A stretch of DNA of 37,282 bases from Psammoneis japonica (taxonomy: Eukaryota). Shown here in pieces: positions 7,273 through 30,563 of the stretch (position 1 is its first letter; each line of letters opens with the position of its first letter). The notes under the pieces were generated by a model. The model was not told the DNA's origin and made no database searches. It saw only the letters and a list, made by a program, of their open reading frames with translations. The stretch spans positions 106,183-143,464 of the forward strand of contig QPGO01000189.1 of NCBI GenBank assembly GCA_008632985.1, read 5' to 3'. The translations under genes were made by a program, and so were the position numbers.

Positions 7273-8085
7273 ACCCGTCGCAGTCGTGACGAAGGGGTGT
7301 AATTCGGGGTGTAATTTTGGGGTGTAAAAACGCGCGTCGCGCGTTTTTACACCCCTCAAAAAAAAATACAGCCAACAATTACCCGTCTTGAGGCATGTAA
7401 TTTTTGCCTGTAATTTTTGGTAAGTGCCTGTAATTTTTCGTACGAAAACAGACTCATCATCGTCCATGACGGCAACAAACATCAGAATGTCGAACAACAA
7501 TGGCAACCAACAATCAACGACGAACTTCAACCAGTAAGAGATGCAAGAACTCGTTGATGGGGAACTATTATGATATATTTATGAAAGAAATAATGGCGAA
7601 AAACGATGAGATTGCCATCAACGGACAACAAAATGAATGCAAGTTCATGCCATTTCAGAAGAAAAACGCGTCATATGGTCGCTGAAACCTTGGCTATGGA
7701 TACAATAGTAACATATGATGTTAATCACGTTATTGTAAATGTACTAGACTTGTCAGAACAATGATTTGATATGCGTAAGGTCGCAGCGGAGCCGCCGAAC
7801 GCCATGGTGTTTTGATGCTGTCAATAGAATGTTCAGTTACGCGTACAAATAAGTTCATTAAAATTAGAGATATAGAGTTATTCCTGCTTTATTATCAACA
7901 ATTCTTGAGGAGTATATATTCAATGAATATATCATTCCTCGCAGAATTACAGGCATCCAATTTCACACTCTCGCAGTCGTGAGAAAATCGGGTGTAATTT
8001 TGGGGTGTAAATTCGCGCGATGCGCGTTTTTACACCCCCAAATTACACCCCGAATTACACCCCAATTTCCACGACTGCGACGGGT
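7273..8085. mobile_element. 813-bp non-autonomous TIR element (MITE-like) inserted in the LINE
   Basis: Termini ACCCGTCGCAGTCGTG...CACGACTGCGACGGGT; 5-bp TSD CTGAG (7268-7272 and 8086-8090); subterminal GGGGTGTAA repeats in inverted orientation. The empty site restores the LINE frame (QWCLRSTCSPVS). No transposase ORF. Confidence 0.92.
7319..7355. repeat. Perfect 18-bp-arm palindrome
   Basis: GGGGTGTAAAAACGCGCG-T-CGCGCGTTTTTACACCCC. Confidence 0.95.
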
Positions 8086-11000
8086 CTGAGACACCATTGA
8101 CCGTCGCTGGCAGTGTCAACCATGACAGGAGAAGCCAAAGAAGACAAATCTGGAACAGTCTCCAACTGACGTAAGGACTCGGCATGTCCATCCTTGACCA
8201 CACATGCATTGCAACCAAGATGAGATCAAATGCACAAGAACTCCTTGGATGGTTCGTAGCATGCCAGAGAAAGTGCACGCACATTTTGTTGACAGGAACA
8301 ACCCACTGGCCCAAAGGACATTTCAGTGCAGGAGTGACATCCTTGCATGGAAGTGCACAAGCTTGACACCATTGCTTCCAAGCCCTGGCAGACGGGGACA
8401 CTTGTTCCACAGGATCAAGAGATGAAGAACCACTCAGAAGCAAGTGCTCACCTTTCAACTTGAATGCATCCAGTTGTCTGCCATCTGGGAGAGTGACATC
8501 CAACACTGTGGGCACTCGAAGACAAAGCCTGCAGCAGTCAACCCATTGGATTTCCCATTCAGTAAATTTGCCGGATGCCATGACAACATCCACGTGGTGT
8601 GTTGATCATTGTCACGCTGGAGAGGCAATGCACTGGTGTCATCCAGATCAAAGGAAGCATTGACACATGCCAGGAATGATCAAAGGGACATGAACCATTT
8701 GGATTTGGAGTGGGGTGGTTTAGAGTGGACGTCCTTTAAAAAGCTCACTCCAGCACCCAGATGGAGTTGGACCCATGATGCTGTGATGTGGGAAAGAACT
8801 CAAGGCTGACCGTGACCGCGCCAATGTTGGAGAAACTGCAAGCACTGAGATGCACCTTGCTCAACATCTAGCAAGCAAAAGCCACCTCCTTTGAGAGCAC
8901 AAGGGCCAAACAATGCACCCCATTTGGTGCTCCAATTGCAACCACATTTGGCAAAGACAGTGCGCATTGCTTTCCACTGGATCTCCAGCAGCTCCTTGGG
9001 CAAGAAACAAGTTTTCTCGAGTGCACACGTCACAGAAGACAAGCAGCATGCAAAATGGTGAGTCCATGCTTCATGTCAATCCAAAGGGCATGACCAGAGA
9101 AAAAGGGCAATGCCATCACTCTTCTTCTTCAGTGCAGAGCATTGCATCTTCTGAGTGGCAGCGGGAGACTTGCAGTGGCCAAGAGGAGTCTTGTGGGATG
9201 AGTGGGATGACAATTGGGTGCTGGACCTTTTTGCAGTGCAATCAGTGGAGAACATCTTGGTGTTGATGTTGTCATGGAACGGGTGCAAACATGGTTCACC
9301 ATCTTCTGCAAACATCCATTCAACAGCATGAAAGGAGCACTTTGGGAGTTCAAGCTCGTGTCCCACTGCATTGAACAAATTGCACCACAATTGGTTGTCT
9401 TCTTGCATTTTCAGGGCCAAGTCTACAGCGGAAGGTTGAGGAGAAGCACAAAAATCATTGACTTGCTTGGAGGTGTCATCGACACATCCATGGATGTAAA
9501 TCTTGAGAGGCTGTTGTTGATGGGCGATTCAAAGTGCATGCCATGTGCCATTTTGTCAAATGGCCAAAACAAACTGTTGCGTGTTTGGTTCCAACAAAAG
9601 GGGGAATTGCCACCACCTTGTCCTGTGCCACAAATGGGAAAGTCAATGCAGTGAGAATGCAATGTCTCCAAAAGGCCAAGGACCATTTTCAACCAATGTC
9701 TGGTGCACCTTCCAAGGTTGCATTTGTGGACTGAGTGATCTCTTTGTGCATGCCGTTGCTTCTTCTCTCCAAAGCCGTTAGTGCCGGAATGTTGTGATTG
9801 CAACAGGAGGTGCAATCATTGTCATTGCAAACAGCGGTCTTCCAAGACACTCTGCTGATCTCCAACATGAGTTCTTCTGAGCACACGAGGGAGTTGGCAT
9901 TCAAGAATGGTCTGGTTCCATAAATGCTGGGATTGCACAAATGCTTGTGTTCCTCATTCTGAGCAAGAGAACTCCACTTCATGCTGGAGACAAGCTGAAA
10001 ATTGGCTTGTTAAACATGAATGACTCTGAGGCGGTGAATCTTGTTGTTGCCGGGCTCTTTGAAGATCATGGCATTGATGACATCTTTCCATCGGTCACAC
10101 AAATGTCCCCATCATAAAGCGCAGTTCAGCAAGTTGAGGCAAATTTGAGTCAAAGACTGCTGCATCACTTGATCCAGCAACACACGTTCCGGGGCAGGCT
10201 TGCCGTCAGCTGTTTGAGAGTGCGAGTGAGCATGAGGGGCGTGCATTGCTTTCCAATGCCCCAGGTGAAGGCCTGAATGAATGGACATTGATGTTGACTC
10301 TTTCCAAGGTTTGATCTTTCCTTCAAGGTCTTGAGTGGCAAGAAAGGAAGAGACTGAGACTGGAGACCTGCATTGCAAATGTTCAACAAACCAAGATGTT
10401 GCCTCATTGAGAGAAAATGTGTTGCATTCTCCATCCAAGATGAGATCCAACACAACAGTGTCTCCCGTGTGACCCAGATCAACAGACAAGGGGGGAACAG
10501 CAGGTGGAGCACCACGGGCCTGTCCAAAGTGTTTCTGGTTGCGTGATCGAAGAGCCACTGCCAACTCTTCTGGTGCATCAACAGTGGCCCAGTCTGTGCA
10601 TTCCTTTGGGTGAACAGCGGGGTTTCAAGGGACCTGAACACTGTTGATGCCGGTGTCGCATTGAGCTTTACATGAGTTGATCTTTCAAAACAACTTGATG
10701 GTCTCCACTGCTTTGCGGATGTTTTGTGGGATGGCAGCAGCCTTCTTCCTGGATGCCTTCATTCCCTCGAGATCCAACTGTGCAATCTCATTGGCAATCT
10801 CATTTTCCTGATGCACGACACTCTCAGCTGCAACCTGTTTGCACTCCGATTGTGCTTTGCACAGAGCCTGTTGACATTCCTGAAAGGTGGATGGAATGCT
10901 GAATGTCCCGGTGAGGTGAGAATGGATTTGTTGAATTTGGGCCACATGATCCAGATGGGTGCGCATCATCAACAGGATGCAAGTGAGGATGTGCACACGA

Positions 11001-13988
11001 CAACGCAAATCAGTCAACTTGACAGACCACTCCAGTTCTTGATGAAGGTGACACTCCTTTGCTGCAGCCAAGGAGAATTGCGGCAAGTCACGATCCAATC
11101 TTTTGGCCAGTTTGTGATCCGGTGTGTCAGCACCCACGTCTCAACTCTCCCGCATGGGACCGATGGATTGCAGGCAGTCTGCGACCTGTGCTTTTGAGGA
11201 TGCCTGCAAATCTCAAAAAGCTGCTTTGGGCAGATCAGCTGTGGGGTTGCTGAAAAGGGCAATGGTGTCAAGATTGACACAACAGGTGCAGTGATCCAAA
11301 GCAACACGGTGGCCAAAGGCTTCACATCTGCCCAAATGCACTGCAGCCAAGTCCCCTGGAGCAGTGAGAATGCAGTCCAACTGCCAAGATCCTCTTGCAC
11401 ATGTGGAAAAATCTGTGTCACCTGAGAGAGAGAACATCACATCAGAGAGATTGAGGTGTTGGGTGAGAGCAGAGAAGGAGTCCGTGTCCAGTGCAAAATC
11501 TGTGTTGATGTCTCCAAACAAGATCTCTTCACGTCCGGGTCCGCAAGGAAGTCTTGCAACAAACAAGACAAATCAGAGAAAAAGGCCTTCCTGGGATCAA
11601 GTGTCTGATGGCCTTGTTGTTGCAGCAGGTGGAGCTGTTGAGCACAAGCTGCAGTCTTCCCAGGCTGCAACTGATGTTTGGCACAAACCTGTGACAAGAG
11701 ACAAACATCACTTGATGTCCATTCCTGCCATCAAATGTCTGTGTGGACCAACGGCCTAAAGGATCGGAGTCTTGAGATTGACAATGAGCTGACACCAAGC
11801 TGCACAACAGCAGCGCAGCACCACCTGGTTTACGCTGGGTGGAGAATGGAGTTGAGCTGGAAGAGAAGGCACCTTGACCATGAAGAAGAGAGGTGGCAAC
11901 CGTCAAACGGCAGACCAAAAGAGCTGAATGCTGAGCAGCATCCAAGAAAACTTCAGATGCTCCTGCTGCATCTGCCTGAATTTCATTTGCAATCTGGCAG
12001 CAACTGGCAATGTCACCTCCACGTTTGTCAAACTTGCAACTGCTGGCATTGACTGCGTGCAAACAGGTGTGGTGCAGTGACTTGGGCAACAAGGGATCTC
12101 CAACAGGCTTGTTGGTTTTCAGTCAAGAGAAACCAATGTGTCGTTCAGTGGGAGGCTGGTGTTGGCACTCCAATCCGGCGTTTCCATTTGATTGTGAAGT
12201 TTTTGGGTGGAGCTCTGTGTGGGCAGACTGGACTTGAGAAGGTGGACAATTTGATTCATCTCTCTTGCATGCTCGTCATTTGGTGGGAGCACTGAGACTG
12301 CAAGGCAGCCACATCTTGGGCACGTTGTTTCGAAAATTTGGAGTCAAGCGCTTCCATGTCCTGGGAATGCTGCTGACGAAGCTCTTCCAAGGCCTTGTCA
12401 TTCTTCTCTTGCATTTTAGACAAAGTTTGTTGAACTTCAGCCATCTGAGTCAAGGTGAGGGAAGAACTGAATGCAGACTGGGCTTCCTGGGTGCAAGTGT
12501 GTTGGGGAGGAGCATGCAGGACAGTCCTGCACAACCAAATGTTGGAGGCAAGAATGACGGAAGCTGAGCAACACCATGAGGAGGAACTAGAGAGCCTTGA
12601 CCAGTGCAGCAACCAAGACTGCCTTGACCTTCATAACCTCTGCCAGGGTGAGATGACGGCCAAGGAGGACGGTGAGCACCTGAAGCCTGAGCATCAGTCA
12701 AAGGAGAGATGTCCAAAAAGGTCAGTGACTCAAGACTGTGGATGCCAGCCAACATGATGGATTTGCTCGTGTCCGACTGTTCGTCTGGGACACCAGAAAC
12801 CTGAGGACAGTCAGGGAAGGGTGACGGATGAGATTCGTCTGGGAGATCTGGAATTAAATTCATGATGCAGGTGGAGACAGCAGCCCTTACATTCCTAAAA
12901 TCCATGTGATTGACAAGGATGTTGCAACGTCCTTCGGTGGCATTGGCGGCAGGAAAAATTGCAGTCACACCTTTCAAAGCCTCAAGGTTGTTCTCCAAGA
13001 AAAACATCATGTCAGGGGAAGCATGCAACAGCGGGACAGCATGGGTGTTGTCATTGCGATGAGCTTGGATTTTAACGGCATTGTGGAAAACAAGGGGAGA
13101 CAAACAACAAGTCTTTGCCATGACGACATGAGACGGGAGCTTGTTGGATGTGCACAGCAAGGCTTTCCCAGCAGTGCAACAGTTGTCCTTGACAACTTCA
13201 ACAGCAAAGGTTGCTGTGTGAAGGGGAGCGGCGATGTTGTTGTTGTCAGCACAAATGGAAACAGGTGCCAAATGGAGCTTCAGCATCTCAGACTTGAATT
13301 CACCCAGATTGCTTGGAAACAATTTCGCAGCTTCATCAACCGGAGCATGCTCAGTTGCAGCTGCAATGCAACATGCAGGAGTGGCCATGTCAACAACAGA
13401 TTCATTCCAGTGGTTGCATTTCATGCCCATGTCATTCAGATCCAGGACACTCTGAATGTGCGGGTGAGAGCAAAGTTCAAGTAAAGAGATTTTTGTGAGA
13501 ATGTGGTGGCACAAGCGATGAGCAACCAGACGTTTCTCACCACTGCAAGCAGCAGAAATTGCAAAGTGTCATTCATGTTGCAAGGACGGTGCCCACTCTG
13601 CCACATTGACATTGGTGATTTGATCATTGTGGTTGTCAAGAATCTTCATGTCCTTGTGGCACGTGAACAAAACTTGTTGAAGAACTTGGAGATGGGCAGC
13701 AACAAGGGACACGGGCTTGCATGAAGCCTCAGGGCCACGAGTGTCAAAACAAAGAGTGATCTCTTCAAACTGTTGCTCTTTTGGCTTGGAAGAAGTCTTG
13801 GGAGAGGCATTGTCAACAGCAACATTGTCTGCCATGTTGGCATCATTGACAGGAGGAGAGGTGTGGCTGCCATCAGCGGCGGAAGAAGACGCCATGGTGG
13901 TTGGCTGTTCTACGGAGATCCTGGTGTTGAAAACACGCAGGTGACTTCAATGCCAATGTTCACAGAAATGCAGAGATCTGCAAAAAGA

Positions 13989-15388
13989 GGGAGTCAACTG
14001 CTTTGAGACCTGCTCTCCAGTGGTCCAATGGTTGACTGTCCATCTTGTGTTGAGCACTGTCATGCAAGAGGGATGGACCACCCGTCAGGTCAACTGCGCC
14101 AATGCTTTTCTTGTGCAGGCCAAGATGATGGAAGATGTTTGCATCAAACCACCCAAGTGTTTTGCTCCCAGTTTGGGATCCAATGTTGTTTTGAAGCTTC
14201 TTGAGAGTCTCTGCAGACTTGAGCAAGCCCCCAAGTGCTTCTTTGACAAGCTGCATGAAGGATTCTTAGAACAAGGGTGGGCACAATCACAAGTTGACCC
14301 TTGCCTGTTTTTCAAGGATGGAATGATTTGTGTGGTCTGTGTTGATGATGCCATTCTTGCCAGAAAGGATGGAGCCACCCCAGAAAGTGAGATCAAGGCT
14401 CCAGGCATCCAAGATGATGAACAATGCCATGCATTCAAGTTGCAAAACAAGGGAGAAGTTGGTGGTGACTTTCTCGGCATCAAGATTTGCAAGACGGGTC
14501 CCAAGGAATTTCTCCTTGCTCAGCCTGGACTTGTTGACAAAGTCCTCAAGGCAGCTGGTGTGGAAGACAGCCACTCTTCCCCTGCTTCAAGTGCTGCCTC
14601 TCCATGTCATGCGGACAAAGAGGGAGCCAAATTTGACAAGAACTGGGGCTGCCGTTCCATCATCGGCATGTTGATGCGTTTGTCCTCCAACTCCCGACCT
14701 GACATCTGCTGCACCATGCATCAGGCCACCTGCTTCTCCCATGCTCCCAAGCACATTTGCAAGGCACTGAGGACAAGGGACTCCACCCATGCCCCCTGGC
14801 AACAATGAACATGTCGATTGTTTCATTGACGCCAACTTGCTGGCCTCTGTGGACACGAAGACTCCCAAGACCCGGTTGGCATCAAGTCTCACACCGGGTG
14901 TGTCATCTTGCATGTGATTGTCCTGTTTCATGGGTTTCTAAGCTGCAGAGGCAAACTGCACTCTCTCCACTGTGGAGGCCAAGCACCTTGCTCTGTTGGT
15001 GGCAATGCATGACCTGATTCCAATTCGTGAAATTTTGAAGGAATTCAAGCGTCATGTTTTTGGACTCAAGGACTGCAAGACCCCCACCACTGCCAAGTCC
15101 AAGGCCTTTTCAGATGTGAAGGATGGCACGATCCCCTCTTTGGCAGTTTACAAGATGATCAGGCATGCCTCAAGTTTGCAAAAATGGCTGAGTTGTCTCC
15201 ACGCACCAAGCACATTGGCATTCCCTGTCATTGGTTCCGTGCCAAGGTCAAGGCTCTTGAGATCCAGATTGAGCCTGTGGGAACTGATTCCCAGCCAGCT
15301 GATCAACTTGCAAAGGGACTTGTTGCTGACAAGTTTGAATCTGGTTGGTTGAGTCTCTCAGGCTTGCAGCTCTGCGGTTGAGAGGGAG
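13989..15388 (+). mobile_element. Degenerate Copia B, 3' part (RT-RNase H, PPT)
   Basis: VVQW, EQAPK, DPCLF, CVDD (14338-14349), SRPDI, WVSKLQ, RTKHIGIPCHWFR, ADQLAKGL; PPT GAGAGGGAG at about 15380-15388. Confidence 0.92.
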
Positions 15389-15555
15389 AGTTGACATCTG
15401 TCATTCCACCTGTCAACTGCATGCAATCGCACGCTCCAATTTCAAATTCTGACACCAAAATCTCTGATCAATGTTGCAGTCATGATTTTCAGTCAATGGC
15501 TTTTGAAACACCAACAGCTGCCAGCACACAACCTGGAGCATCAGCTCTTTTGACA
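15389..15555 (+). repeat. Probable 3' LTR of Copia B (second copy about 24903-25070); end uncertain
   Basis: Directly follows the PPT; a candidate ...TTGACA end at 15555. No 5' LTR recognised. Confidence 0.4.
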
Positions 15556-15582
15556 TTCACAGTCATGCATTGGCGCAACAAG

Positions 15583-15805
15583 TCGGGGGACGTCTTTGGA
15601 AGTGAGATCATCAAAAAAGTCTGTGCACCAGTGCATTTGGGGTGCAAAAATTCCCAGACACTCGAAATTTGATGCCGATGATGATGGCAAAAGATGGCTC
15701 CCAGGGGCTTCTATTTTGCAGACTGCAATGCATTCAACACCTTTTGTTGACACCTTCATGACTGTTGCAAGCAATGATGAAAAAATCTTGCTGAGAATCG
15801 GGGTG
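15583..15805 (-). repeat. About 220-bp repeat, inverted and hypermutated copy of the sequence upstream of the CRN-like genes; other copies 18853-18978 (+), 25097-25323 (-), 27432-27686 (+)
   Basis: Reverse complement aligns to 27432-27686 and 18853-18978; most substitutions are TA->TG/CA or CG->TG/CA. Confidence 0.88.
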
Positions 15806-16141
15806 AAATGCAATGTTTCTCTCTTCTTGGCGATGAGCAGCTGCAAGCTTGGCGACTCTTTGCCATCACTCACCACCCTCTTGTTTGCTTTTCTCTTCTC
15901 TGGAGATGTCATCATTTGCTTGTCTTTGACTCCAGGTGGGTGCATGCTGACAAGGAACCACACTTTGCACTGCTCTGATTTGACCCACAGTGGAAAACAA
16001 GAAGCAAACATCCTTTTGCTCGAGTCCACACCCAAACATGCTCTCCTGCACACAAGAACAGTGGATCAACAGATCTCCTTTGTTGTCTCATCACTTGATT
16101 GAAACTTCATCTAGATTTCCCTCATGCCACTGATTTGACTT

Positions 16142-17880
16142 GTGGAGAGCCATGGAGCCCAAGAAGAATTCAAAGAGGAACTTGTGCAATGCAGAACAGC
16201 AGCGCAAGGCTCAATTCTCAGTTCTGCAAGGCATTGGTTGCCAGCCAAGGCAACTCAGAATGGTGCCATTCCTTGCAAGATTGACCACAATGAGAATGAG
16301 TCAGGCTTTGATGTTTCTTCTTGCTCTGTCAAGTGCACCGGGTGGGCCCCTGTTGAGACATGCTCTGATGAGGTTGCCAAAGATCAAGCAGGCTCTGATG
16401 TTCTGGAGATGAAGTGCTTTGCAGTGTTCCACTTTTGTGCCAGCAATTTCTGCAACAAGGGCTCCTCCAAAGGACACAATTCTGAATGCAGAGAGCACAT
16501 TTTAGAGTTGGGCAAACACCTTGGGGCAGTCACCAAGTTCAATGAAGAGTGCATGAATGGCATTTGTGGATGCTTTGCCAGCTGCATGCAGGCTGTTGAA
16601 GATCAAGAAGCCACAGCTGCAGATCAAGATGCTGAAGATGGGCGTGACTGTGGTGATGTGTGGGGTGATGATGGCAAGCGCAAGCTTGATGAAGATGCCC
16701 AAGATCATAAAGTGGAAGATGAAGCTGAGGCCGATGCCACAGAGGAGGAAGAACTGGCCTGTGATCACAATGATGAATGTCAAGATCACTCAATGAGCGC
16801 ATCAGGCATTGCCACAATCAAGCCATGGATGTGGGTGATTTCATGGAACATGTGGAAATGACTTTGGTGATGACGACTGTGGCCCAGTGCACCACATGGC
16901 ATCCCATTGTTGTGACGGTGGTTCTGAAGTCACCATTGGGGTCTCTTCTCTGATCAACATTGCTCCAACCATTGGAGACAAAGTGTCCCTTTCAGGAACT
17001 CGTCAGAGTGCAGTTCAATGCAACCAACTCTGTTTCTTGCAACAAAGATGAGTGTGTCTCCTGTCTTGATGATAAAGAAGGGGCACGTTTGTCATCTTTG
17101 GCTGCCTTCCGTTTGCTTTGTGTTTCACTCAAATGCTTTCTGCTTGAAGAATTGAAGCACGCCTTTGCCCCTTCTTTTGTTTTGTGCAAAGCAATTCTGG
17201 CATGGTTGGGATGAAAAACAAGATGAAAACAATACAACAACAACAACAACCAGAACAACGGCTGTGATGAATCTGAAGTTTTGGAGGTTTGCCACAAGCT
17301 CTGTGAACTGAGTGCAAAGCATCAACAGAACTTTGTCTTTGACACCAGCAAATGTCAACACGCTGGTTGTCAGGTGAGCAGCAATTGTCTGCAAACTGCG
17401 TTTTGCATCATTGTTCTTGACTTTTCACCTCAATGACTTGCATCTCTTGTTCTAATTTCACAGACTGCTGTCCAGAAGGCCAACCAAGAGCAAGTCTGCA
17501 ACTGCATGACAACCTTGAAGAAAGGAAATTGCAACAAAAGGGTGAGATTGTTGTCGGTTGGAATCACCCGCTTCACATTTCTGATTGGAACAACAAACAA
17601 GCTCACTTTGATGAGTTCTCCTGTGTCAAGGAGCAGGCATCAAAAGTGACTCCCAGCCACGTTGCTGCCCTTGACTTCTTTGGAATTGGCAGCTTGGCAT
17701 TGTGTGTATGGCATGTGTCATTTGGGCTCAGCTTGCCAACAAGAACATGCCTTGGAGACCTTGCTGAGGAAAGTGCACGCTGACCCGACAAACATCACAA
17801 GGCAGACCTCCGGCATTGTCCTTGGAAAGTCTGGCAGCAGCAATGATGGCATCTCCAGCAAAAAGCCCCACTCATCCAAT
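16142..17880 (+). pseudogene. Decayed silicanin-1-like (diatom type I membrane protein) gene, copy 1
   Basis: Reverting Cys/His to Tyr gives FDVSSYSVKYTG...ETYSDEV..KRFAVFRFC..NFC...SEYxEYILEL..YL, an acidic region with RKL, a C-terminal TM segment (VAALxFFGIGSLALCV) and a tail RQTSGIVLG. This resembles silicanin-family architecture; recognised from memory, not by search. About 17090-17430 looks foreign. Confidence 0.6.
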
Positions 17881-18107
17881 GATGATCTTTTGCACTTTGA
17901 ACCATCCAAGAACAATCGAAGATGTGAGAAGTGAAGTTCTCTGAAGTTTGCATGGTGTGTGCAACAGCGGTTCCCAGTTGCAACAAGCTTCATTTCATTT
18001 TTTGTGCGCCAGCAGCAAATCTAGAAATGCACTGTTGCCAAACTGCAAAATTGCAACAGAGGCACATTAATCATGACAACAGTGAAGCAAGCACCTTTCT
18101 TCTCATG

Positions 18108-18790
18108 TCACTGCAATCCCAAGCAAGCTGAAATGACGACGTGGTCACAGGGTTCCACTTGATTGGGAAAGGGCCCTGTTGGCCACGTTGCGGTTCACAA
18201 TTTTTTTCACCTTTGTGACTCCCCAGGCTTTTGACAAGAAAATGTAATCAAGAGTTCCAACAAAGGGATCATCTTGCCTCATGTGCTTGGCAAAATCTGG
18301 TTCTCCACAAATGGACTCTGCACAAGCACTCTTGAGTGCACAGCAGGAGATCATTCCACGCCATGCTTGGGCTTGGGACAGCTTGGATCACTCTTGTCCA
18401 GCTTGCCAGTGACAAGCAGTTAGTGGGCATCAAGTCAGGCAAGAGGTTGAACCCTCCCACCAGAGTGCAATGCAAGCCGCAGGACAGATCTTGAACATGT
18501 CTTGCAGTTTGCATGAATGCGCAATGCCGCGGGTGCACAAAATGCACACACGGCAATGCAAAAGGCTTCATTGGTTCTCTTGTCCTGTGAGGTTGTGGTG
18601 TGGAGAATGTTGTGGTGATGCTGAGATATTTTCCAGTGATCAATCGGTGTTTCCCTTGATGTCCAACAACCCAAATCTTCAAGGGAATGTTGGTTGGCCC
18701 CAGAGACTGTGCAGTCCATTCCAAGCACGCGGCGCCAAGCCACGTTCTGGTTCTGCAGGCCACCCACTGACTCGCTTGTCACTTAGCCAA
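18108..18790 (-). pseudogene. Decayed CCR4/nocturnin-like endonuclease-exonuclease-phosphatase (EEP) gene, 3' part
   Basis: Motifs LVGGFN (for LxGDFN), LKSAC(Y)A..GEPDF, DPFVGTLDYIFLS, EPCDH (for PSDH); frameshifted; 5' part missing. Confidence 0.75.
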
Positions 18791-19023
18791 GAAACATTAA
18801 CGTCGATTGTTTCAAACACAGAGATTGGGGACAACGTCATAGCTGCACCCGCGGGAGCCGTCTTTTGCCATCATCGTCGGCATCAAATTTCGAGTGTCTC
18901 GGAATTATTGTACCTCAAACGCACTGGCGTACAGACTTTTTTCGACATTCTCACCGCACTTCCAAAGACGTCCCCCAAACCCAACGAAGCGCAGTGAAAT
19001 TCGAGATTTCTGCGGTCAACACC

Positions 19024-21671
19024 ATGACGATCGTTGTTTGGTACAAGCTCGACAGTGCATCGCCTTCCAAAGTGAAAGTGCAAGATGGCGCTGATGTGGA
19101 TGACTTGAAGGAAGCTGTCAAAGAGAAGTCAGCAAATGCGTTGAAGAACACTGATGCTTCAGAACTCCAGGTCTTCGCTGCGGGTGCAGATCCGAACAAA
19201 GACAAGCCTCTCAAGCCTTACAAGCCCGTTCCAAGTGATACGACGGGTCCAAACCCTCTTATTGTAAAAGCTCTGCTGGACCACCAACCTCCGTGGCAGC
19301 AGCAGGGAGAAGGTTAGTTTAATTGTTGCTTGTACTTGTACTCTAATGTTCAATCACACCTACGCTTTCAACTCCACATGAGTCTAACACTGTGACTCGT
19401 GCAGCGTCACTGCAGAGCCCCTTCAAGACACCAGCTGCCACACCCCGGAATGGACAGAATACACAGGAATCTCCAGGGGTCCACCTGGACCGAGCGGCTA
19501 ATGGTCCTGATAGAGATCTTCTGACCGCGGCGAGTCTATCGCAGCAGCAGCAGCAACAACAACAACAAAATTCACTCACGGTACTATTCGACAAATTCCC
19601 GGCGCTAAAAGTTTCTGAATCTGATGAATCAGCTACCCCTTTGCCGTTCGTGAACCGCGAGGCAGAATGCGAGCAACTTGCCACGGTCTTACTTGCGAAT
19701 TACAAGAAGCGGAAGAGAAACCGAACAACGACAACTGGTTCACAATCTCAATACCGACTCAGTCTAGCAACATCAGCGCAGATGTTTGGCGCCGGGAAAT
19801 CAACTTTCGGGGCAAATTTTCTGCNNNNNNNNNNNNNNNNNNNNNNNNNNNNNNNNNNNNNNNNNNNNNNNNNNNNNNNNNNNNNNNNNNNNNNNNNNNN
19901 NNNNNNNNNNNNNNNNNNNNNNNNNNNNNNNNNNNNNNNNNNNNNNNNNNNNNNNNNNNNNNNNNNNNNNNNNNNNNNNNNNNNNNNNNNNNNNNNNNNN
20001 NNNNNNNNNNNNNNNNNNNNNNNNNNNNNNNNNNNNNNNNNNNNNNNNNNNNNNNNNNNNNNNNNNNNNNNNNNNNNNNNNNNNNNNNNNNNNNNNNNNN
20101 NNNNNNNNNNNNNNNNNNNNNNNNNNNNNNNNNNNNNNNNNNNNNNNNNNNNNNNNNNNNNNNNNNNNNNNNNNNNNNNNNNNNNNNNNNNNNNNNNNNN
20201 NNNNNNNNNNNNNNNNNNNNNNNNNNNNNNNNNNNNNNNNNNNNNNNNNNNNNNNNNNNNNNNNNNNNNNNNNNNNNNNNNNNNNNNNNNNNNNNNNNNN
20301 NNNNNNNNNNNNNNNNNNNNNNNNNNNNNNNNNNNNNNNNNNNNNNNNNNNNNNNNNNNNNNNNNNNNNNNNNNNNNNNNNNNNNNNNNNNNNNNNNNNN
20401 NNNNNNNNNNNNNNNNNNNNNNNNNNNNNNNNNNNNNNNNNNNNNNNNNNNNNNNNNNNNNNNNNNNNNNNNNNNNNNNNNNNNNNNNNNNNNNNNNNNN
20501 NNNNNNNNNNNNNNNNNNNNNNNNNNNNNNNNNNNNNNNNNNNNNNNNNNNNNNNNNNNNNNNNNNNNNNNNNNNNNNNNNNNNNNNNNNNNNNNNNNNN
20601 NNNNNNNNNNNNNNNNNNNNNNNNNNNNNNNNNNNNNNNNNNNNNNNNNNNNNNNNNNNNNNNNNNNNNNNNNNNNNNNNNNNNNNNNNNNNNNNNNNNN
20701 GCACAACCATCGAAGGGCGGTTCTGGGGATTTGAAGGGGACGTCATGACGCTGGAAGTGTGTAGCGCGTTTCCCTTGTACCTACAACGCTGGGATGCCGA
20801 TTGCCATTTTCTGGTCATACCCCCGGTCATCTTGGACAATGTTGCAGAGAAAAGTCCAGATCCGCGGCTTCCATTTTGGAGTTCGTTGTACAATGTATGC
20901 CCAATTCAGGCGAAAGCACAGAGATCAGGCGACTTGCTAGAGACAATGGTACAGCACATTCTTCGCTTGCGTGTGAGCGAGGAGCTCCATTTGGACCCTC
21001 GACCTCTCGGCCAGTCCCTGCCCTTCTTGGAAGGATCTATCATCGGTAAGGACACATTCCAATACGTCGACTTCAAATCATTTCCCAAAATTACGACCGT
21101 TCCAAGACCTGGAAAAACTGTCGCTGACTTGCGTAAGTTCTTCGACAACCCGTCTGCTGCTGGATTCAATGACGTCCACCCGGATGACCTTGCGAAAATA
21201 GTCGGCTTGTTTGAGAATGGAATCTTCTACGTTCCACGACCAATGTCTTCTTCTGGAGACCTGCTTTTCAGAACCGACCGTACGGATGCCATTGTCGAGA
21301 TGCAGTTCAAGAACGGCAAGCAGGAGGTGAATTCGACCATGATGGCTAAAGAGCTGCAGAAGTCGTGTTGTCACGTCAGTGAGAAGCAAGTAGTGTTTGT
21401 GATGGTCGCGCTGACAACGGACAAGACAAAACTACCAACGGGCACAGATGTTATCGACTTAAATGGGAATACAATTGCTTCGCGTTACGGCCATGGGGTG
21501 TCTTTCGGTGAAACTGTTGTCCCGTCAAATTTGGAAGTGATTGTTGTGCTTGAACCTGGTCTGGTATCATTCTTGACCGAAGCCAATGTTCAGATCCTTC
21601 GGAAAGACGGATTGGATTTAAACGACATGGCTGAGGCGACGCGGTCACCTTCAAAACGTCCTCTTGACTAG
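19024..21671 (+). CDS. Crinkler/CR-effector-like protein copy 1: ubiquitin-like header, polyQ linker, P-loop NTPase, PD-(D/E)xK-like nuclease; exons 19024-19312 and 19405-21671 (gap inside)
   Basis: Header VWYKL..DVDDLKEAVKEK..L.NTDASELQVF; GT-AG intron 19313-19404 with CTAAC branch point that keeps frame; PFVNREAE and Walker A-like AQMFGAGKST; C-terminal FYVP..SSSGDLLF..VEMQFK. About 290 codons hidden by Ns. Confidence 0.75.
19825..20700. other. Assembly gap
   Basis: Run of N. Confidence 1.
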
Positions 21672-21869
21672 TCAAAGCAAAAGGCAGATCTCTGTGCTGG
21701 AAAACAATGAAAATGCCGCGTATCTAGCTTCTCAGTGTGGACTTTTGTTTGTCGACTACTATGACACGTCGACTCAAGAGAGAATCCCTTGAATGGAGCC
21801 AATCAGAAGAACGCTCTGGTGGCTGTGTCCCGAAGCTTGAATGTTGAACAATAATTACGCAGACTTGAT

Positions 21870-22456
21870 ATGTGTCAATAGAAAATGTCCGAGAAAGTTT
21901 GTCTGGAAACATATATCCAAATTTCTCTCCGATTGTCCGTCTCCGTTGGTTCCCGCATTGTTTACCAATGCATCAATTTTGCTGTATCGACCAAGTACGA
22001 CTTTGGAAAATTCTCGAACCGAATCAAAGCTGCCGAGATCAAGCGGATGAACAAAGACGGCGTCACCTGCATGCTCTCCGGTGCAGGCTTGTTGAATGTG
22101 TTGAACCGCCTTTATTCCCTTTTCACGAGATCGACAAGCGAGCATAACCTCGTACCCTCTCTCCACAAGCGCCTTGGACGTTTCAAACCCAATGCCCGTT
22201 TTGGAACCCGTAACGATTACCACTTTTTTGCTCGTCACGGGTACAAACGGCACTTGCCTAGGTTCCAATAGTAGGGATGGAAAGGGGCATGCAAGGTGTG
22301 CTGCCGCCGAGTAAAGAACGGCAAGCGGGGAAAAACTGTGGAGAATAACGCGTTCGAATAAAACGGCGACGCTACTGCCGTCGATGGGATCATTGTGTAA
22401 GAGATCAACAGACCGAGTAAAGCTGACGACAAGGGAAACAACCGCAACGGCGACAT
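21870..22456 (-). pseudogene. 3'-truncated short-chain dehydrogenase (retinol dehydrogenase-like)
   Basis: Signal-peptide-like start, [48 protein letters not shown], then homology stops with no YxxxK; frameshift near 22270. Confidence 0.8.
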
Positions 22457-22748
22457 GACTTCTCCATGCCCGCGGTATCTTATGACGTGTCGTGTCGGAG
22501 GGAAAAATTCAAAAAAAAAAAGAGAAATCAAAAATTTCGAAAAAATGATGGGCAGAGGAGGTTGCCCGCGCAAAAGTCATAGCCAGACTGACTCACAAAG
22601 GTGCCGAAGAGACAAGACACCGACCAGCGACCAGGTGTTGTTTGTTATTACTTCTTCTCTTTGTTGTTTGTGGAGGCCAACCCTACCAACATATCGGTGT
22701 GCAGTATCCTTATTGTCACAGTTGTACCTCATCTCATCATAGTCTACA

Positions 22749-23368
22749 ATGGTGTGCATTCGAATGGCAACGGTGGATGATTTGCTGCAAATGCAAACCA
22801 CCAATCTTTGGTGTTTGCCAGAGAATTATCAAATGAAGTACTTTTATCACTTGCTAAGTTGGCCACAATTGCTATGGGTTGCCGAAGACTTTGACGGAAA
22901 AATTGTCGGATATGTATTGGCGAAAATGGAAGAAGATGAAAAGCAACCTCGTCATGGTGAGTTTTGAAGAAGTGTGCGAATCAAACGATGCGGTTGGTAT
23001 CTGTGCTTGCTATCATGCGCTGCTGTTTACTAAACATCTGTTTTTCAGGCCACATTACGTCTCTGTCTGTACTCCGGACTCACCGTAAACGTGGTATTGC
23101 CACTGCCTTGATGAGACGGTCTCAATTGGAAATGGAAGAAGTCTTTGAGGCAGGGTACGCGAGTCTCCATGTCCGTGAATCCAACCGTGCCGCCATTCAC
23201 CTTTACAACAAGACACTTCAATACGAAATCAATGATGTTGACAAGGGATATTATGCGGATGGAGAAGATGCGTATGATATGCGTTGTACCTTTGAGAAGA
23301 ATAAAAAACAAGACGGAGTAAAGGAGATTACCAAGGGCGTTGAAAAACAGGTGAAGGTGTCCGCCTAG
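22749..23368 (+). CDS. NAA10: N-alpha-acetyltransferase 10 (NatA catalytic subunit, ARD1); exons 22749-22956 and 23049-23368
   Basis: [87 protein letters not shown]...TTTCAG intron joins the frames. Confidence 0.95.
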
Positions 23369-23426
23369 AGATAGCATTCCCATCATTAAACTTTGTCCTT
23401 TATCTGCACAATCTATCTACACTTTT

Positions 23427-24493
23427 TTATTCGTCTTCTTCCCAATCTTCAAAGTCCACCACTTTGCTTGCGGCCTCTTGGCGAAAGGCCGTCAATCCAG
23501 ACGTGTTTTCTAGAAAGGTTCCATCAATCGACTCGCAAGTTTTTTCGACCAACCCCATCTTGTCCTCGCGATAGGCATTGACAATGGGACTGGAGCACGC
23601 TGTACAGTGTTCAAAAGCGGGTACCGTGGGTGTCATCATTGTGTAGCTCACCAGCGATCCACGAATCTGATGGGGAATAATGCCCAGCGGTGACGCTGCT
23701 TCCTCGCTCGACACGGTGGGAGCATAGTTACTCGAGGTTGCATTGGAAGGAGCCGGTGCTCCGTATCCTTGAGGGTGATGCAAAAGAGCAATGAATAGTT
23801 CAACAGCCATGGAACTTGCCACGGGCGCTAGTCCTGGCCTCGTCACGGTACATTGTTGATCCAACGTTCGATTCTTCATGGAGTTTTCAGGTGCCACGAC
23901 ATGTTGCAAAAGTAGCAGCCCAATCGATGTTGTTCGGAGCTGCCGCCACCAGGATTCTCTTGTGTCTGTCACAGTTAAAAGACCACGTCACAGTCCTGAA
24001 CCATTTGATCCAGATTCTCCACGGTCTCTTCCATGACGGCTCGATCCGATTCTACATGACCCGGCATTGGAATAGACAACACCTTGCCCTCACTCGAAAC
24101 ATTTGCCGCGATCAAGTGAAGTGCTTCAGCGGCAGCAACTGCCTTTGGACGACCTCCGCTGCCTGTCGTGGTGGTGGATGCCTTGTCGTCGCCATCACAA
24201 CGACAATCTTGTAGTGTAGAGAGATTCTGTCAGACTGGATTGGAGTACCTCACTCGACCATAATGGACAAACTTTAACTCACGTATCCCACCCCAACAAG
24301 ATTCGAGCAAAACACGGCATCCAAGCGTACCGGCACCCAGCAAGAGTGCCTTGGTCGATTGCAGCAATTCCAAATTGAGAGTGGGAATCATTTGCCACTT
24401 CATCAATTTGAGATTCAAATCAGCCGCTTGAATGGCAAGGTGCGTTTCGTCCAGTGGCGGACGCAAGTTGGGCCACCATGGTCCTGGTTTGGA
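23427..24493 (-). pseudogene. ATG7: ATG7 3'-half copy, 5'-truncated, with an internal deletion of about 89 bp and frameshifts
   Basis: Aligns to 31146-32299; deletion between GCCACC direct repeats at about 23950; ends abruptly against Copia RNase H at 24493. Confidence 0.92.
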
Positions 24494-24902
24494 GCTCTGT
24501 GGGCTGCGATGCGCGACCTGATTCAGATTCATGAAATTTTGAAGGAATTCAATAAGCGTCACTGTTTTCGGACTCAAGGACTGCAAGACCCCCGTCACTG
24601 CCGAGTCCAAGGCCTTTTCTTATGTAAAGGACGGCACGATCCCCTCTTCGGCAGTTTACGAAGATAATCAGGCGTGCCTCAAGTTTGCGAAAATGGCTGA
24701 GTTGTCTCCACGCACCAAGCACATTGGCATTCCCTGTCATTGGTTCCATGCCAAGGTCGAGGCTCTTGAGACCCAGATTGAACCTGTGGGAACTGATTCC
24801 CAGCCAGCTGATCAATTTACTAAGGGACTTATTGTTGCTGACAAGTTTGCATCTGGTCGGTTGAGTCTCTCAGGCTGGCAGCTCTGCGGTTGAGCGAGAG
24901 GA
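24494..24902 (+). mobile_element. Duplicated Copia B RNase H end plus PPT
   Basis: AVYEDNQACLKFA, RTKHIGIPCHWF, ADQFTKGL; aligns to 14987-15388 and is less mutated. Confidence 0.9.
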
Positions 24903-25655
24903 GAGTTGACGTTTGTCATTCTGCCTGTTGACTGCGTGCAATCGCACGCTCCAATTTCAAGTTCCAACATCAATGTCTCTGATGGATGTTGCAGTCATGG
25001 TTTTTAGTCAACAGCTTTTGCAACACCAACAGCTGCTAGTTTACAACCTAGAGCATCAGCTCTTTTGACATCCACAGTTGTGCATCGGCGCAACAAGTTG
25101 GGGGACGTCTTTGGAAGTGAGAGTGTCGAAAAAAGTCTGTGCACCAGTGCGCTTGGAGCACAAAAATTCCAAGACGAGACCAAAAATTTGATGCCGACAA
25201 TGATGGCAAAAGACAACTCCCAGGGGGTTCCATTTTGTAGACTGCAACGCATTCAACGCCTTTTGTTGACACCTTCATGACTGTTGCAAGTGATGATGAA
25301 AAAATCTCACTGAGAATTGGGGCGAAATGCGGTGTTTCTCACTTCTTGACAATGAGTGGCTGCAAGCTTGGTGACTCTTTGCCATCACTCACTGCCCTCT
25401 TGTTTGCTTTTCCATTCTCTGGAGACATTGCCACTTGTTTGTCTTTGACTCCAGGTGGGTCCATGCTGGTGGGAAACCACACTTCGCACCGCTCTGATTT
25501 GACTCACAGTGGAAAATGAGAAGTGAGCATCCTTTTGCTCAAGTTCACATCCAAACATGCTCTCCTGAACACAAAAACAGTGGACCAATGGATCTCCTTT
25601 GTAATCTCATAACTTGGTTGAAACCTGATCTAGATTTCCCTTGTGCCGCTGATTT

Positions 25656-30365: not shown

Positions 30366-30563
30366 TCAAAGCAAAAGGCAGATCTCTGTGCTGGAAAACA
30401 ATGAAAATGCCGCGCATCTAGCTTCTCAGTGTGGACTTTTTTTGTCGACTACTATGACACGTCGACCTCAAGAGAGAATCCCTTGAATGGAGCCAATCAG
30501 AAGAACGTTCTGGTGTCTGTGTCCCGAAGCTTGAATGTTGAACAATAATTACGCAGACTTGTT

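What the first reader, a model, noticed from the sequence alone, without database searches (positions are those of the whole stretch)
15583..15805. Internal before/after control shows the direction and context of the mutations
Unmutated copy (reverse complement of about 27490-27530) TTCTATTTTGTAGACTACAATGTATTCAACGCCTTTTATTGA versus 15709-15750 TTCTATTTTGCAGACTGCAATGCATTCAACACCTTTTGTTGA: four TA->CA/TG changes, one CG->CA, nothing else. Likewise GTCTGTACGCCAGTGCGTTTG (18917-18937, reverse complement) versus GTCTGTGCACCAGTGCATTTG (15619-15639). The copy at 25229 reads TTCCATTTTGTAG, so a different TA was hit there and the two mutated copies were edited independently after duplication.
Basis: seen in the sequence. 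Interest (0 to 1): 0.85.

Follow-up and report, generated by a model that had tools for sequence, protein, structure and literature searches.

The report
TpA-erasing hypermutation in diatom transposon DNA
In a transposon-filled stretch of a diatom-like genome almost every TA and most CG dinucleotides have been changed to CA or TG, and an untouched sister copy next to a gene shows the direction of change; no described mutational system removes TA in this way.

Summary
15583-15805 is one arm (A1) of a four-copy ~200-nt repeat. A1 and A2 lie inside transposon-derived domains; B1 and B2 lie just outside them, upstream of Crinkler-like genes.

- **Asymmetry.** B2 has TA (9) or CG (8) at 17 sites where A1 has CA/TG. 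The reverse occurs 0 times.
- **Scale.** About 18 kb of the window (~1900-18500 minus a young insert, and ~25050-27470) has TA o/e 0.05, CG o/e 0.28 and CA/TG o/e 1.74. GC content is unchanged.
- **Outgroup polarity.** At 9 of 9 Tyr columns conserved in 139 Copia homologues, the window's Copia copies carry His or Cys.
- **Location and timing.** The change happened in place on DNA and continued after a tandem duplication. It depends on position, not on duplication: neighbouring duplicates and an equally old ATG7 pseudogene keep their TA.
- **Character.** It hits both strands equally, without clustering, and favours R-T-A/T-A-Y.
- **Two components.** TA loss and CG loss are separable.

CG loss fits 5mC decay of methylated diatom transposons. 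TA loss (A:T to G:C) has no known counterpart, and its enzyme is unknown. No whole genome or methylome was available.

The parts
15585..15805 (+). Arm A1 of the four-copy repeat (the finding): the mutated copy, with 1 TA and 4 CG
25098..25323 (+). Arm A2: the mutated copy in the second tandem unit, with 1 TA and 7 CG
18853..18976 (-). Arm B1 (truncated): near-ancestral copy, 48-171 nt upstream of the ATG (19024) of a Crinkler-like gene
27434..27635 (-). Arm B2 (full length): near-ancestral copy with 10 TA and 13 CG, starting at the edge of the mutated domain
1900..18500 (.). Hypermutated domain 1 (TA o/e 0.00-0.17, CG o/e 0.1-0.5 per 500 nt), interrupted by the unmutated insert at 7268-8092. 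Edges lie at about 1880-2000 and 18500-18780.
25050..27470 (.). Hypermutated domain 2, in the second tandem unit
14990..24496 (+). Tandem duplication unit 1. Segment A (14990-17810) is mutated. Segments B-E (18848-24496) are not.
24494..32303 (+). Tandem duplication unit 2. Identity to unit 1 is 87% for A', 88.7% for B', 98% for C', 95% for D' and 92% for E'.
1..1581 (+). cop1: the 3' part of a Copia pol (RVT_2). TA is lost (o/e ~0.25; 0 of 9 conserved Tyr kept) but CG is kept (o/e ~1).
3035..5399 (+). 5' part (gag, integrase, start of RT) of a second Copia, fully hypermutated and split by an ~8.5 kb nested insert
13945..15363 (+). cop2: the RT/RNase H part of the split Copia, with 0 Tyr in 473 residues. 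The tandem duplication starts inside it, at 14990.
23457..24493 (-). 5'-truncated, frameshifted ATG7 pseudogene (3 in-frame stops). It is a neutral control of the same age and keeps TA (22 per kb) and CG (58 per kb).

Best explanation
The 223-nt piece lies inside a transposon-derived block of a nuclear genome whose ATG7 is most like those of pennate diatoms. In that block a DNA-level process, confined to the block, has turned nearly all TpA and most CpG into CpA/TpG by single transitions. The same sequence just outside the block, in front of Crinkler-like genes, kept its ancestral TA and CG.

Shown here:
- The direction of change.
- It acts in place, and continued after a tandem duplication.
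- It depends on position in the block, not on being duplicated or on being non-functional.
- Each site is hit independently and both strands are hit equally.
- Only TA, CG and CA/TG frequencies change.
- TA flanked as R-T-A/T-A-Y is lost most completely.
- TA loss and CG loss can each occur without the other.

Inferred:
- The CG component is deamination of 5-methylcytosine in CG-methylated, silenced transposons, as described for diatoms.
- The TA component is a second, chromatin-targeted activity that recognises the TpA step of duplex DNA. It changes either the A (deamination to hypoxanthine, read as G) or the T (oxidation to a G-pairing form), and one hit destroys the site on both strands. 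I give the adenine-deamination version about 0.25 and the thymine-modification version about 0.15. The rest goes to an unknown chemistry.
For: **Asymmetry in the arms.** 17:0, 17:1, 7:0 and 7:0.

**Composition.**
- TA is 64 in 17,953 nt in the domains against 502 in 13,752 nt outside. CG is 305 against 777.
- Strand-symmetrised o/e changes only for TA (0.52 to 0.05), CG (1.02 to 0.28) and CA/TG (1.17 to 1.74). AA/TT is 1.17 vs 1.18.

**Outgroups.**
- At 9 conserved Tyr columns in 139 homologues, cop1 has His 6 and Cys 3. cop2 has Cys 6 plus R, I and G in a degraded part.
- The YxDD-box Tyr (column 238, Tyr in 88% of homologues) is His in cop1 and Cys in cop2.
- Ten codon-aligned outgroup loci all show the TA asymmetry.

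**In place and after the duplication.**
- A vs A' has 54 CA-vs-TG double mismatches, against a mean of 5.25 and a maximum of 14 in 2000 random placements.
- A further 57 sites are CG vs CA/TG and 17 are TA vs CA/TG. Segments B-E have 0 CA|TG doubles.

**Position effect.** In the first 560 nt of the duplicated segment, unit 2 now abuts genic DNA. There it keeps 14 CG and 7 TA where unit 1 has CA/TG, against 2 the other way (p = 7e-5). The rest of the segment gives 27:24.

**Not duplication-triggered and not neutral decay.** Duplicates C-E (92-98% identical) and the ATG7 pseudogene keep TA.

**Strand symmetry.** CA is 1893 vs TG 1888, chi2 is 74.2 on 69 df, and the runs test gives P = 0.48.

**Flank rule.**
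- Density relative to unmutated DNA is 3% for ATA, 5% for GTA, 16% for CTA and 20% for TTA.
- Residual TA is YTAR in 35 of 64 cases, against 76 of 502 outside. It is RTAY in 2 of 64, against 162 of 502.
- Lost Tyr codons preceded by Y gave Cys 7 and His 1. Those preceded by R gave Cys 2 and His 5 (Fisher p = 0.04).

**Separability.**
- cop1 has lost TA but kept CG, with 8 of 8 conserved Arg columns kept.
- Metagenome Copia loci include L051, L061 and L066 with CG loss only, and L077 with TA loss only.

**Not a base-calling artefact.** Contigs of run X1, at word depth about 60, match the TA-poor sequence with 0-4 differences over 353-895 nt.
Against: - No outgroup copy of the 200-nt arm itself was found outside the window. 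Its polarity rests on asymmetry, composition and the Copia outgroups.
- Eight of 12 arm sites mutated in both A1 and A2 carry the same state. Part of the TA loss may therefore predate the duplication.
- An 825-nt TIR element inside the domain (7268-8092) has normal TA (o/e about 0.8). Either the process is not acting fast now, or it does not act on that element, or the insert is very recent.
- The late TA changes, 17 one-copy events in A vs A', do not follow the flank rule.
- The flank rule assumes that ancestral composition resembled today's unmutated DNA.
- Run X1 may be the data the window was assembled from, so it is not independent.
- No methylome, modified-base data, genome or candidate enzyme was available. 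The chemistry is inference only.
Confidence: 0.8

Rival explanations
1. Reverse direction: CA/TG is ancestral, and the gene-proximal copies gained TA by a RIP-type CpA to TpA change.
For: RIP makes TpA from CpA (recalled). One site (column 94) has TA in B2 only.
Against: B would also have had to gain CG from CA/TG at 8 sites, which is the opposite transition. B1 and B2 have ordinary TA and CG densities, while A1 and A2 are the outliers. Conserved Tyr are lost in 9 of 9 columns. All 10 outgroup loci point the other way. TpA/ApT is 0.06 and (CpA+TpG)/(ApC+GpT) is 1.94 in the domains, the mirror image of a RIP footprint.
Confidence: 0.02
2. Selection, not mutation: active retroelements evolve low UpA and CpG in their RNA to escape host RNA surveillance, as RNA viruses do.
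For: Joint CpG and UpA suppression in cytoplasmic RNAs and RNA viruses is described (PMC3829696, abstract start seen in the listing). Metagenome locus L026 (TA o/e 0.04) still keeps Tyr at 3 of 9 conserved columns.
Against: The YxDD-box Tyr and all other conserved Tyr are destroyed. cop2 has stops and a degraded frame. Both strands are affected equally. Non-coding flank is affected, including the arm. Changes arose independently in two tandem copies that never transposed.
Confidence: 0.04
3. Editing before integration: retroelement RNA or cDNA is edited (ADAR- or APOBEC-like) and the edited copy integrates.
For: The domain is largely Copia-derived. A-to-G and G-to-A editing footprints in retroelements are a known kind (recalled; review listings).
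Against: Editing of one nucleic-acid strand should give strand-biased clusters. Observed are CA 1893 vs TG 1888 with no clustering. There are events after the duplication and a position effect in non-transposing tandem copies. The depletion runs across nested elements and flanks.
Confidence: 0.04
4. Collateral damage of repair: frequent 5mC deamination in methylated transposons recruits patch repair by an error-prone polymerase that mis-inserts G opposite T, as in the A:T phase of antibody hypermutation.
For: This would explain TA loss in a methylated element that still keeps its CG (cop1) and the confinement to a silenced block. The polymerase eta WA hotspot with A to G is recalled, not tested.
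Against: A WA-type error should also erode AA, but AA/TT o/e is 1.17 in the domains vs 1.18 outside. The T-A-Y/R-T-A flank rule is not the WA rule.
Confidence: 0.07
5. Artefact: modified bases in transposon DNA are miscalled, giving CA or TG at random at each palindromic site.
For: Random CA/TG resolution of palindromic sites is what strand-specific miscalls would give. The window is a scaffolded draft with N runs.
Against: Contigs built from exact 31-mers at depth about 60 in run X1 reproduce the sequence. That implies accurate reads, though the library type is not on record. The same footprint occurs in an unrelated metagenome contig (L026) and in 3 of 142 representative Copia proteins with 0-0.9% Tyr.
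Confidence: 0.03

Closest known systems
Repeat-induced point mutation (RIP) of ascomycete fungi
   Same: It irreversibly disables transposon DNA by dense transitions in a dinucleotide context. It acts on genomic DNA in place and leaves a diagnostic dinucleotide skew.
   Different: RIP is C:G to T:A, mainly at CpA, and creates TpA (recalled). Here TpA is destroyed (A:T to G:C) and CpA/TpG are created. RIP needs duplication, but here duplicates of 0.55-1.4 kb at 92-98% identity are untouched. No strand-clustered tracts are seen. A RID-type gene could not be looked for.
CpG decay of CG-methylated transposons (DNMT5-dependent methylation in diatoms; Hoguin et al. 2023, PMC9998398, passages read)
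   Same: The CG to TG/CA half of the footprint matches. It is confined to transposon DNA, symmetric on both strands and independent site by site.
   Different: It cannot produce TA to CA/TG. Among 80 metagenome Copia loci, CG-only depletion is common, while strong TA depletion is seen in 1 locus and moderate depletion in 2.
RIP-like TCG hypermutation in basidiomycetes (Horns et al. 2012, PMC3318451, abstract start seen in the listing)
   Same: It is transposon-directed C to T in a CpG-containing context. Here TCG is the most depleted NCG, at 20% of the unmutated density against 31-38% for the others.
   Different: It has no A:T to G:C component.
Symmetric 6mA at ApT in eukaryotes (PMC12695648, passages read)
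   Same: It is a palindromic A/T dinucleotide mark on duplex DNA, kept symmetric on both strands.
   Different: It sits at ApT, marks transcribed genes and is not linked to ApT depletion. Here ApT is unchanged (o/e 0.89 vs 0.90) and the target is TpA in silent transposon DNA.
Very-short-patch repair and CTAG scarcity in E. coli (recalled, not checked here)
   Same: It is a repair bias that turns T:G mismatches into C:G and so erodes a TA-containing word into CA/TG-containing words.
   Different: It is bacterial, tied to one methylation site and weak in effect. Here every TA context is eroded about tenfold, and only inside a block.

Membership tests
RIP (repeat-induced point mutation) | Mutations are C:G to T:A transitions | tested here: not met
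   The TA component is A:T to G:C. Only the CG component is C to T.
RIP (repeat-induced point mutation) | CpA is the preferred target, giving TpA excess and CpA/TpG deficit (index thresholds recalled) | tested here: not met
   TpA/ApT is 0.06 and (CpA+TpG)/(ApC+GpT) is 1.94 in the domains, against 0.58 and 1.20 outside.
RIP (repeat-induced point mutation) | Triggered by sequence duplication | tested here: not met
   Duplicated segments C, D and E (98, 95 and 92% identical; 1.4, 0.9 and 0.55 kb) keep TA o/e 0.3-0.66. Identical sequence is mutated or spared according to position.
RIP (repeat-induced point mutation) | Depends on a RID/DNMT4-type gene | not testable with these tools
   No whole genome is held for the window. 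DNMT4 exists in some diatoms with unknown function (PMC9998398).
Methylation-driven CpG decay | CG to TG/CA transitions, symmetric on both strands, site by site | tested here: met
   CG o/e is 0.28 vs 1.02. There are 57 CG-vs-CA/TG sites in A vs A'. CA is 1893 vs TG 1888.
Methylation-driven CpG decay | The affected DNA is 5mC-methylated | not testable with these tools
   No methylome is available. This is inferred from diatom literature.
RNA/cDNA editing footprint (ADAR- or APOBEC-type) | Changes of one type on one strand, in clusters, acquired before integration | tested here: not met
   Both strands are hit equally with no clustering. Changes occurred after the duplication in tandem copies.
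Ty1/Copia LTR retrotransposon (the mutated substrate) | RVT_2 reverse transcriptase above Pfam's gathering score, in the order gag / integrase / RT | tested here: met
   RVT_2 scores 115.9 bits (1-1584) and 60.5 bits (13945-14808) against a cut-off of 31.6. Full-length homologues map to 3035-5399 plus 13975-15348 in order. LTRs were not identified.
Crinkler (CRN) N-terminal domain (the gene beside the unmutated arms) | PF20147 above the gathering score | tested here: met
   The score is 29.4 bits against a cut-off of 24.6 for the ORF 18787-19317. The rest of the gene lies partly in an N run and was not examined.

The most novel reading that the evidence does not exclude
Some diatoms may possess a previously undescribed genome-defence or chromatin-linked mutator that works on duplex DNA of silenced transposon blocks and converts TpA to CpA/TpG. 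This would be an A:T to G:C mirror image of RIP. It would not be triggered by duplication and would have its own T-A-Y/R-T-A specificity. It implies either a eukaryotic DNA adenine deaminase or a TpA-directed thymine modification that nobody has described. Because it erases TAA and TAG stops and all Tyr codons, it would also generate long open frames from dead transposons.
Probability: 0.4. Interest if true: 0.92.

Novelty: new variant of a known kind. Interest (0 to 1): 0.8.

Why it matters
Context-specific hypermutation of transposons is known from fungi (RIP, C to T), and CpG decay is known wherever transposons are methylated.

A process that removes TpA about tenfold by A:T to G:C changes, confined to transposon blocks with edges sharp to a few hundred bases, would be new on two counts. 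It would be a new mutational chemistry acting on eukaryotic chromosomes. It would also be a new way for a major group of marine algae to kill transposons.

It has practical consequences:
- Such DNA loses TAA and TAG stops, so it carries long false open frames (stop triplets; ORFs).
- Its proteins lack Tyr, and such proteins are already in public protein sets (3 of 142 representatives).
- Similarity searches and transposon dating by divergence are distorted.

The tandem duplication in this window is a natural experiment. It separates sequence from position and gives a relative rate: TA and CG are lost at least tens of times faster than other sites change. Background divergence is about 5% in the same time.

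Tried and rejected
- **Whole genome.** None is held for this window. No genome-wide survey or enzyme search was possible.
- **The listing of cluster members.** Their sources remain unknown.
- **Earlier notes of this scan.** Nothing was found by place, sequence or words.
- **RNA.** No RNA holder was listed for 13000-19800.
- **Strand-coordinated clusters.** Looked for and not found.
- **LTR pair of the split Copia.** Not detected by self-BLAST. I could not decide whether the arm is LTR or flank. Loose ends at 15585 in run X1 suggest a junction there.
- **DNA-level outgroup of the arm.** No metagenome locus matches the window beyond short Copia stretches of 64-80% identity.
- **Splitting the 54 CA|TG doubles into TA-derived and CG-derived.** An independence model gives about 27 from CG. 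Rate heterogeneity makes this unreliable.
- **Flank rule in other data.** L072 and L049 have RTA fractions of 0.38 and 0.43, below all 75 ordinary loci (minimum 0.45). L026 does not fit (0.60, only 5 TA). This is weak.
- **Literature.** Searches found no report of TA to CA/TG loss in diatom or other transposons.
  - Term searches inside PMC2806351 and bioRxiv 10.1101/2025.10.24.684338 found no relevant passage.
  - Supplements were not opened.
  - The library lacks most subscription journals.
- **Polymerase-eta-type WA errors.** Rejected because AA/TT is unchanged.
Full report
**1. What the window is**

The window is eukaryotic nuclear DNA.
- An intron-free ATG7 (31146-32975, minus strand) finds its best named relatives in pennate diatoms: Seminavis, Mayamaea, Cylindrotheca and Nitzschia. 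The top hit is 66% identical.
- It also carries Copia-type retroelement pieces, a short-chain dehydrogenase and an ORF with a Crinkler N-terminal domain.
- No whole genome is held for it.
- Two N runs of 876 nt each lie at 19825-20700 and 28520-29395.

**2. The observation**

The piece at 15583-15805 is one of four copies of a ~200-nt sequence:
- A1 at 15585-15805 (+)
- A2 at 25098-25323 (+)
- B1 at 18853-18976 (-, truncated)
- B2 at 27434-27635 (-)

A1/B1 and A2/B2 belong to the two units of a tandem segmental duplication, 14990-24496 and 24494-32303. B1 lies 48-171 nt upstream of the ATG (19024) of the Crinkler-like gene.

Over the whole arm, A1 vs B2 (201 aligned columns) shows the following:
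- 17 sites where B2 has a palindromic pyrimidine-purine step (9 TA, 8 CG) and A1 has CA or TG
- none the other way
- 7 other transitions and 6 transversions

The other pairs give A2 vs B2 17:1, A1 vs B1 7:0 and A2 vs B1 7:0. B1 and B2 differ at only 4 of 106 columns.

The 17:0 split has p = 1.5e-5. A1 holds 1 TA and A2 holds 1 TA, where 8 are expected at the density of unmutated DNA. B2 holds 10 where 7.4 are expected.

**3. It is the visible tip of a much larger feature**

In 500-nt windows, about 2000-18500 and 25000-27500 have TA o/e of 0.00-0.17, mostly 0.03-0.08. CG o/e is 0.1-0.5 and CA+TG o/e is 1.5-2.0, at unchanged G+C of about 0.5. The gene-bearing remainder has TA o/e 0.3-0.7 and CG o/e about 1.

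| Measure | Domains | Outside |
|---|---|---|
| TA count | 64 in 17,953 nt | 502 in 13,752 nt |
| CG count | 305 in 17,953 nt | 777 in 13,752 nt |
| TA o/e | 0.05 | 0.52 |
| CG o/e | 0.28 | 1.02 |
| CA/TG o/e | 1.74 | 1.17 |
| AA/TT o/e | 1.17 | 1.18 |
| AT o/e | 0.89 | 0.90 |
| TpA/ApT | 0.06 | 0.58 |
| (CpA+TpG)/(ApC+GpT) | 1.94 | 1.20 |

Of the ten strand-symmetrised dinucleotides, only TA, CG and CA/TG move. TAA and TAG triplets fall five- to six-fold. This is why ORFs of 120 aa or more stand on both strands throughout the domain.

Edges are sharp to a few hundred bases:
- the last TA before the left edge is at 1882
- the right edge of unit 1 is at about 18500-18780
- unit 2 runs from about 25050 to 27470, where arm B2 begins

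**4. Polarity from outgroups**

The domains are largely Copia.
- cop1 (1-1581) is the 3' half of a pol.
- A second element is split by an 8.5-kb nested insert into 3035-5399 and 13975-15363 (cop2).

A search of 1.84 billion representative proteins gave 150 relatives. Of these, 142 had a stretch covering at least 380 query residues. Three with 0-0.9% Tyr were set aside, leaving 139.

In the nine columns where at least 60% of these carry Tyr:
- cop1 has His 6, Cys 3 and Tyr 0
- cop2 has Cys 6 plus R, I and G in a degraded stretch
- cop2 has no Tyr at all in 473 residues
- the Tyr of the YxDD box (column 238) is His in cop1 and Cys in cop2

Other conserved residues of cop1 are intact: D 9/9, P 12/12, K 6/6, Q 6/6 and R 8/8. 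TAY to CAY or TGY is exactly TA to CA/TG.

At the DNA level, codon-aligned comparisons were made with ten metagenome Copia loci. In all ten, outgroup-TA over window-CA/TG exceeds the reverse:
- cop1: 16-47 vs 4-9
- cop2: 11-38 vs 0-2

**5. In place, after the duplication, and by position**

*Substitution spectrum of segment A.* Segment A (14990-17810) and its copy A' (24494-27325) align over 2796 columns with 315 mismatches: 261 transitions and 54 transversions. The breakdown is as follows.
- 108 of the mismatched positions form 54 CA-vs-TG double mismatches. This is the signature of one ancestral TA or CG resolved one way in one copy and the other way in the other.
- Random placement of 261 transitions gives a mean of 5.25 doubles and at most 14 in 2000 trials.
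- A further 57 sites are CG vs CA/TG and 17 are TA vs CA/TG.
- So 182 of 261 transitions are of this kind.
- Duplicated segments B-E have 0 CA|TG doubles, with transition:transversion ratios of 31:23, 14:7, 28:12 and 23:13.

*Sites within the arm itself*.
- One TA and three CG were resolved as TG in A1 and CA in A2.
- Six further sites changed in one copy only.
- Eight sites (6 TA, 2 CG) carry the same derived state and may be older than the duplication.

*Position effect.* The duplication junction put the Copia tail of unit 2 next to genic DNA.
- In its first 560 nt, unit 2 keeps 14 CG and 7 TA where unit 1 has CA/TG, against 2 the other way (p = 7e-5).
- Further in, the counts are 27 and 24.
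- Identical sequence is therefore mutated or spared according to where it lies.

*Neither duplication nor lack of function is sufficient.*
- Segments C-E are 92-98% identical duplicates and are not depleted.
- The unit-1 ATG7 copy is a 5'-truncated, frameshifted pseudogene with 3 in-frame stops.
- That pseudogene still has 22 TA and 58 CG per kb, against 3.6 and 17 in the domains.

**6. Properties of the process**

*Strands.* Both strands are hit equally and without clustering.
- CA is 1893 vs TG 1888 in 70 bins, with chi2 of 74.2 on 69 df.
- The order of CA and TG at the 54 doubles passes a runs test (P = 0.48).

*Flanks matter.*
- Relative to unmutated DNA, ATA and GTA survive at 3% and 5%. 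CTA and TTA survive at 16% and 20%.
- Surviving TA is YTAR in 35 of 64 cases, against 76 of 502 outside. It is RTAY in 2 of 64, against 162 of 502.
- Lost Tyr codons preceded by a pyrimidine became Cys 7 times and His once. Those preceded by a purine became Cys twice and His 5 times (Fisher p = 0.04).
- All this fits a half-site R-T-A, equivalent to T-A-Y on the other strand.
- The 17 late one-copy TA changes do not follow the rule. The rule also assumes an ancestral composition like today's unmutated DNA.

*The two components are separable.*
- cop1 has lost TA (o/e about 0.25, no conserved Tyr left) but kept CG (o/e about 1).
- Among 80 metagenome Copia loci, several have lost only CG (L051, L061, L066).
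- L077 has lost mainly TA (0.32 / 1.02).
- Only L026 shows the full footprint (TA 0.04, CG 0.20). L072 and L049 are intermediate.

*Rate.* Non-YR divergence between A and A' is about 5%, from 79 other transitions plus 54 transversions in 2796 columns. Over the same time most TA and CG were lost. The per-site rate is therefore at least tens of times the background. This is inference.

**7. Is it real DNA?**

Contigs of public run X1 hold 73% of the sampled words of 13000-19800. At word depth about 60 they match the TA-poor sequence with 0-4 differences over 353-895 nt.

That argues for accurate reads and against miscalled modified bases. However, the library type is not on record and the run may be the assembly's own data.

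Independent hints come from L026 and from the three Tyr-poor Copia proteins among 142 representatives. Their origin could not be looked up.

**8. Mechanism**

*Shown:* a directional, in-place, block-confined, site-independent conversion of TA and CG to CA/TG.

*Inferred for CG:* deamination of 5-methylcytosine.
- Diatom transposons are CG-methylated by DNMT5a (PMC9998398, passages read).
- CG-only decay is common in related elements.

*Inferred for TA:* a separate activity that recognises the TpA step in silenced chromatin. One hit removes the site on both strands, which explains why no CG|TA double changes are seen in A vs A'.
- Candidate 1 is deamination of adenine. A 5' T preference and a T-A-C natural substrate are recalled for TadA-type enzymes. 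TadA's pocket accommodates adenine, and a D104N alteration increases its adenine deamination in DNA (PMC5889660, passages read).
- Candidate 2 is modification or oxidation of thymine at TpA. 5hmU at TpA in dinoflagellates and base J in telomeric repeats are recalled, not checked.
- Known eukaryotic 6mA does not fit. It sits at ApT, marks active genes and is not linked to ApT loss (PMC12695648, passages read). ApT is unchanged here.

*Rivals examined:* reverse direction, selection on RNA, pre-integration editing, polymerase-eta-type repair errors and artefact. Each fails at least one test above and is listed in the Rival explanations section.

**9. Comparison with what is known, and limits**

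The footprint works like RIP in outcome, since transposons are killed by dense context-specific transitions. It fails all three testable defining features of RIP: base change, dinucleotide and duplication dependence. Its CG half is ordinary methylation decay.

I found no description of the TA half in seven full-text searches or in two diatom transposon papers searched for terms. The library lacks most subscription journals and I opened no supplements.

Not available here: the rest of the genome, any methylome or modified-base data, RNA, and candidate enzymes.

An unmutated 825-nt TIR element inside the domain (7268-8092) shows that the process is either not fast at present, or does not act on that element, or that the insert is very recent.

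Noticed in passing
window 7268-8092: An 825-nt, AT-richer element with ~88-nt terminal inverted repeats (89% alike) sits inside the hypermutated domain. It has normal TA (o/e about 0.8) and CG. It is a young MITE-like or DNA-transposon insertion, or a sequence the process does not touch.
   Followed up: partly
window 19825-20700 and 28520-29395: Two N runs of exactly 876 nt sit at the same relative place in both tandem units, inside the Crinkler-like genes downstream of the N-terminal domain. They were left alone.
   Followed up: no
window 18787-19824 and 27531-28519: Tandemly duplicated genes with a Crinkler (PF20147) N-terminal domain occur in a diatom-like genome, directly beside a transposon block. 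The two copies are only 88.7% identical, with many gaps and a near-even transition:transversion ratio (31:23).
   Followed up: partly
window 23457-24493 (-) vs 31146-32975 (-): The tandem duplication cut ATG7. Unit 2 keeps the full 609-aa frame. Unit 1 holds a 5'-truncated, frameshifted copy with 3 in-frame stops (73-76% aa identity).
   Followed up: yes
window 21855-22508 (-) and 30549-31118 (-); 22074-23051: A short-chain dehydrogenase gene is duplicated with the unit. Unit 1 carries about 1 kb (22074-23051) that has no counterpart in unit 2.
   Followed up: no
window 17810-18848 vs 27325-27434: Unit 1 has about 1 kb of TA-poor DNA where unit 2 has about 110 nt, and arm B1 is truncated at that point. 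This is a rearrangement after the duplication.
   Followed up: no
proteins P0256, P0210, P0162; loci L026, L072, L049, L077: Public protein and metagenome collections already hold Copia sequences with the same footprint: 0-0.9% Tyr with His/Cys at conserved Tyr columns, and L026 with TA o/e 0.04. Gene callers translate such dead DNA as proteins.
   Followed up: partly
window 34355-34627 and 35282-35558; 36572-37108 (-): There is a 77% direct repeat about 930 nt apart in the unmutated right end, and an ORF with a weak DUF6824 match (24.6 bits, below the cut-off of 27).
   Followed up: no
window 13000-19800, run X1: Word depth rises from about 60 to 250-730 over 13681-15723. Further contigs at 90-95% identity differ mostly by transitions (A>G 27, G>A 22, C>T 19 and T>C 23, against 24 transversions). 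The genome therefore holds more diverged copies of this Copia tail.
   Followed up: partly
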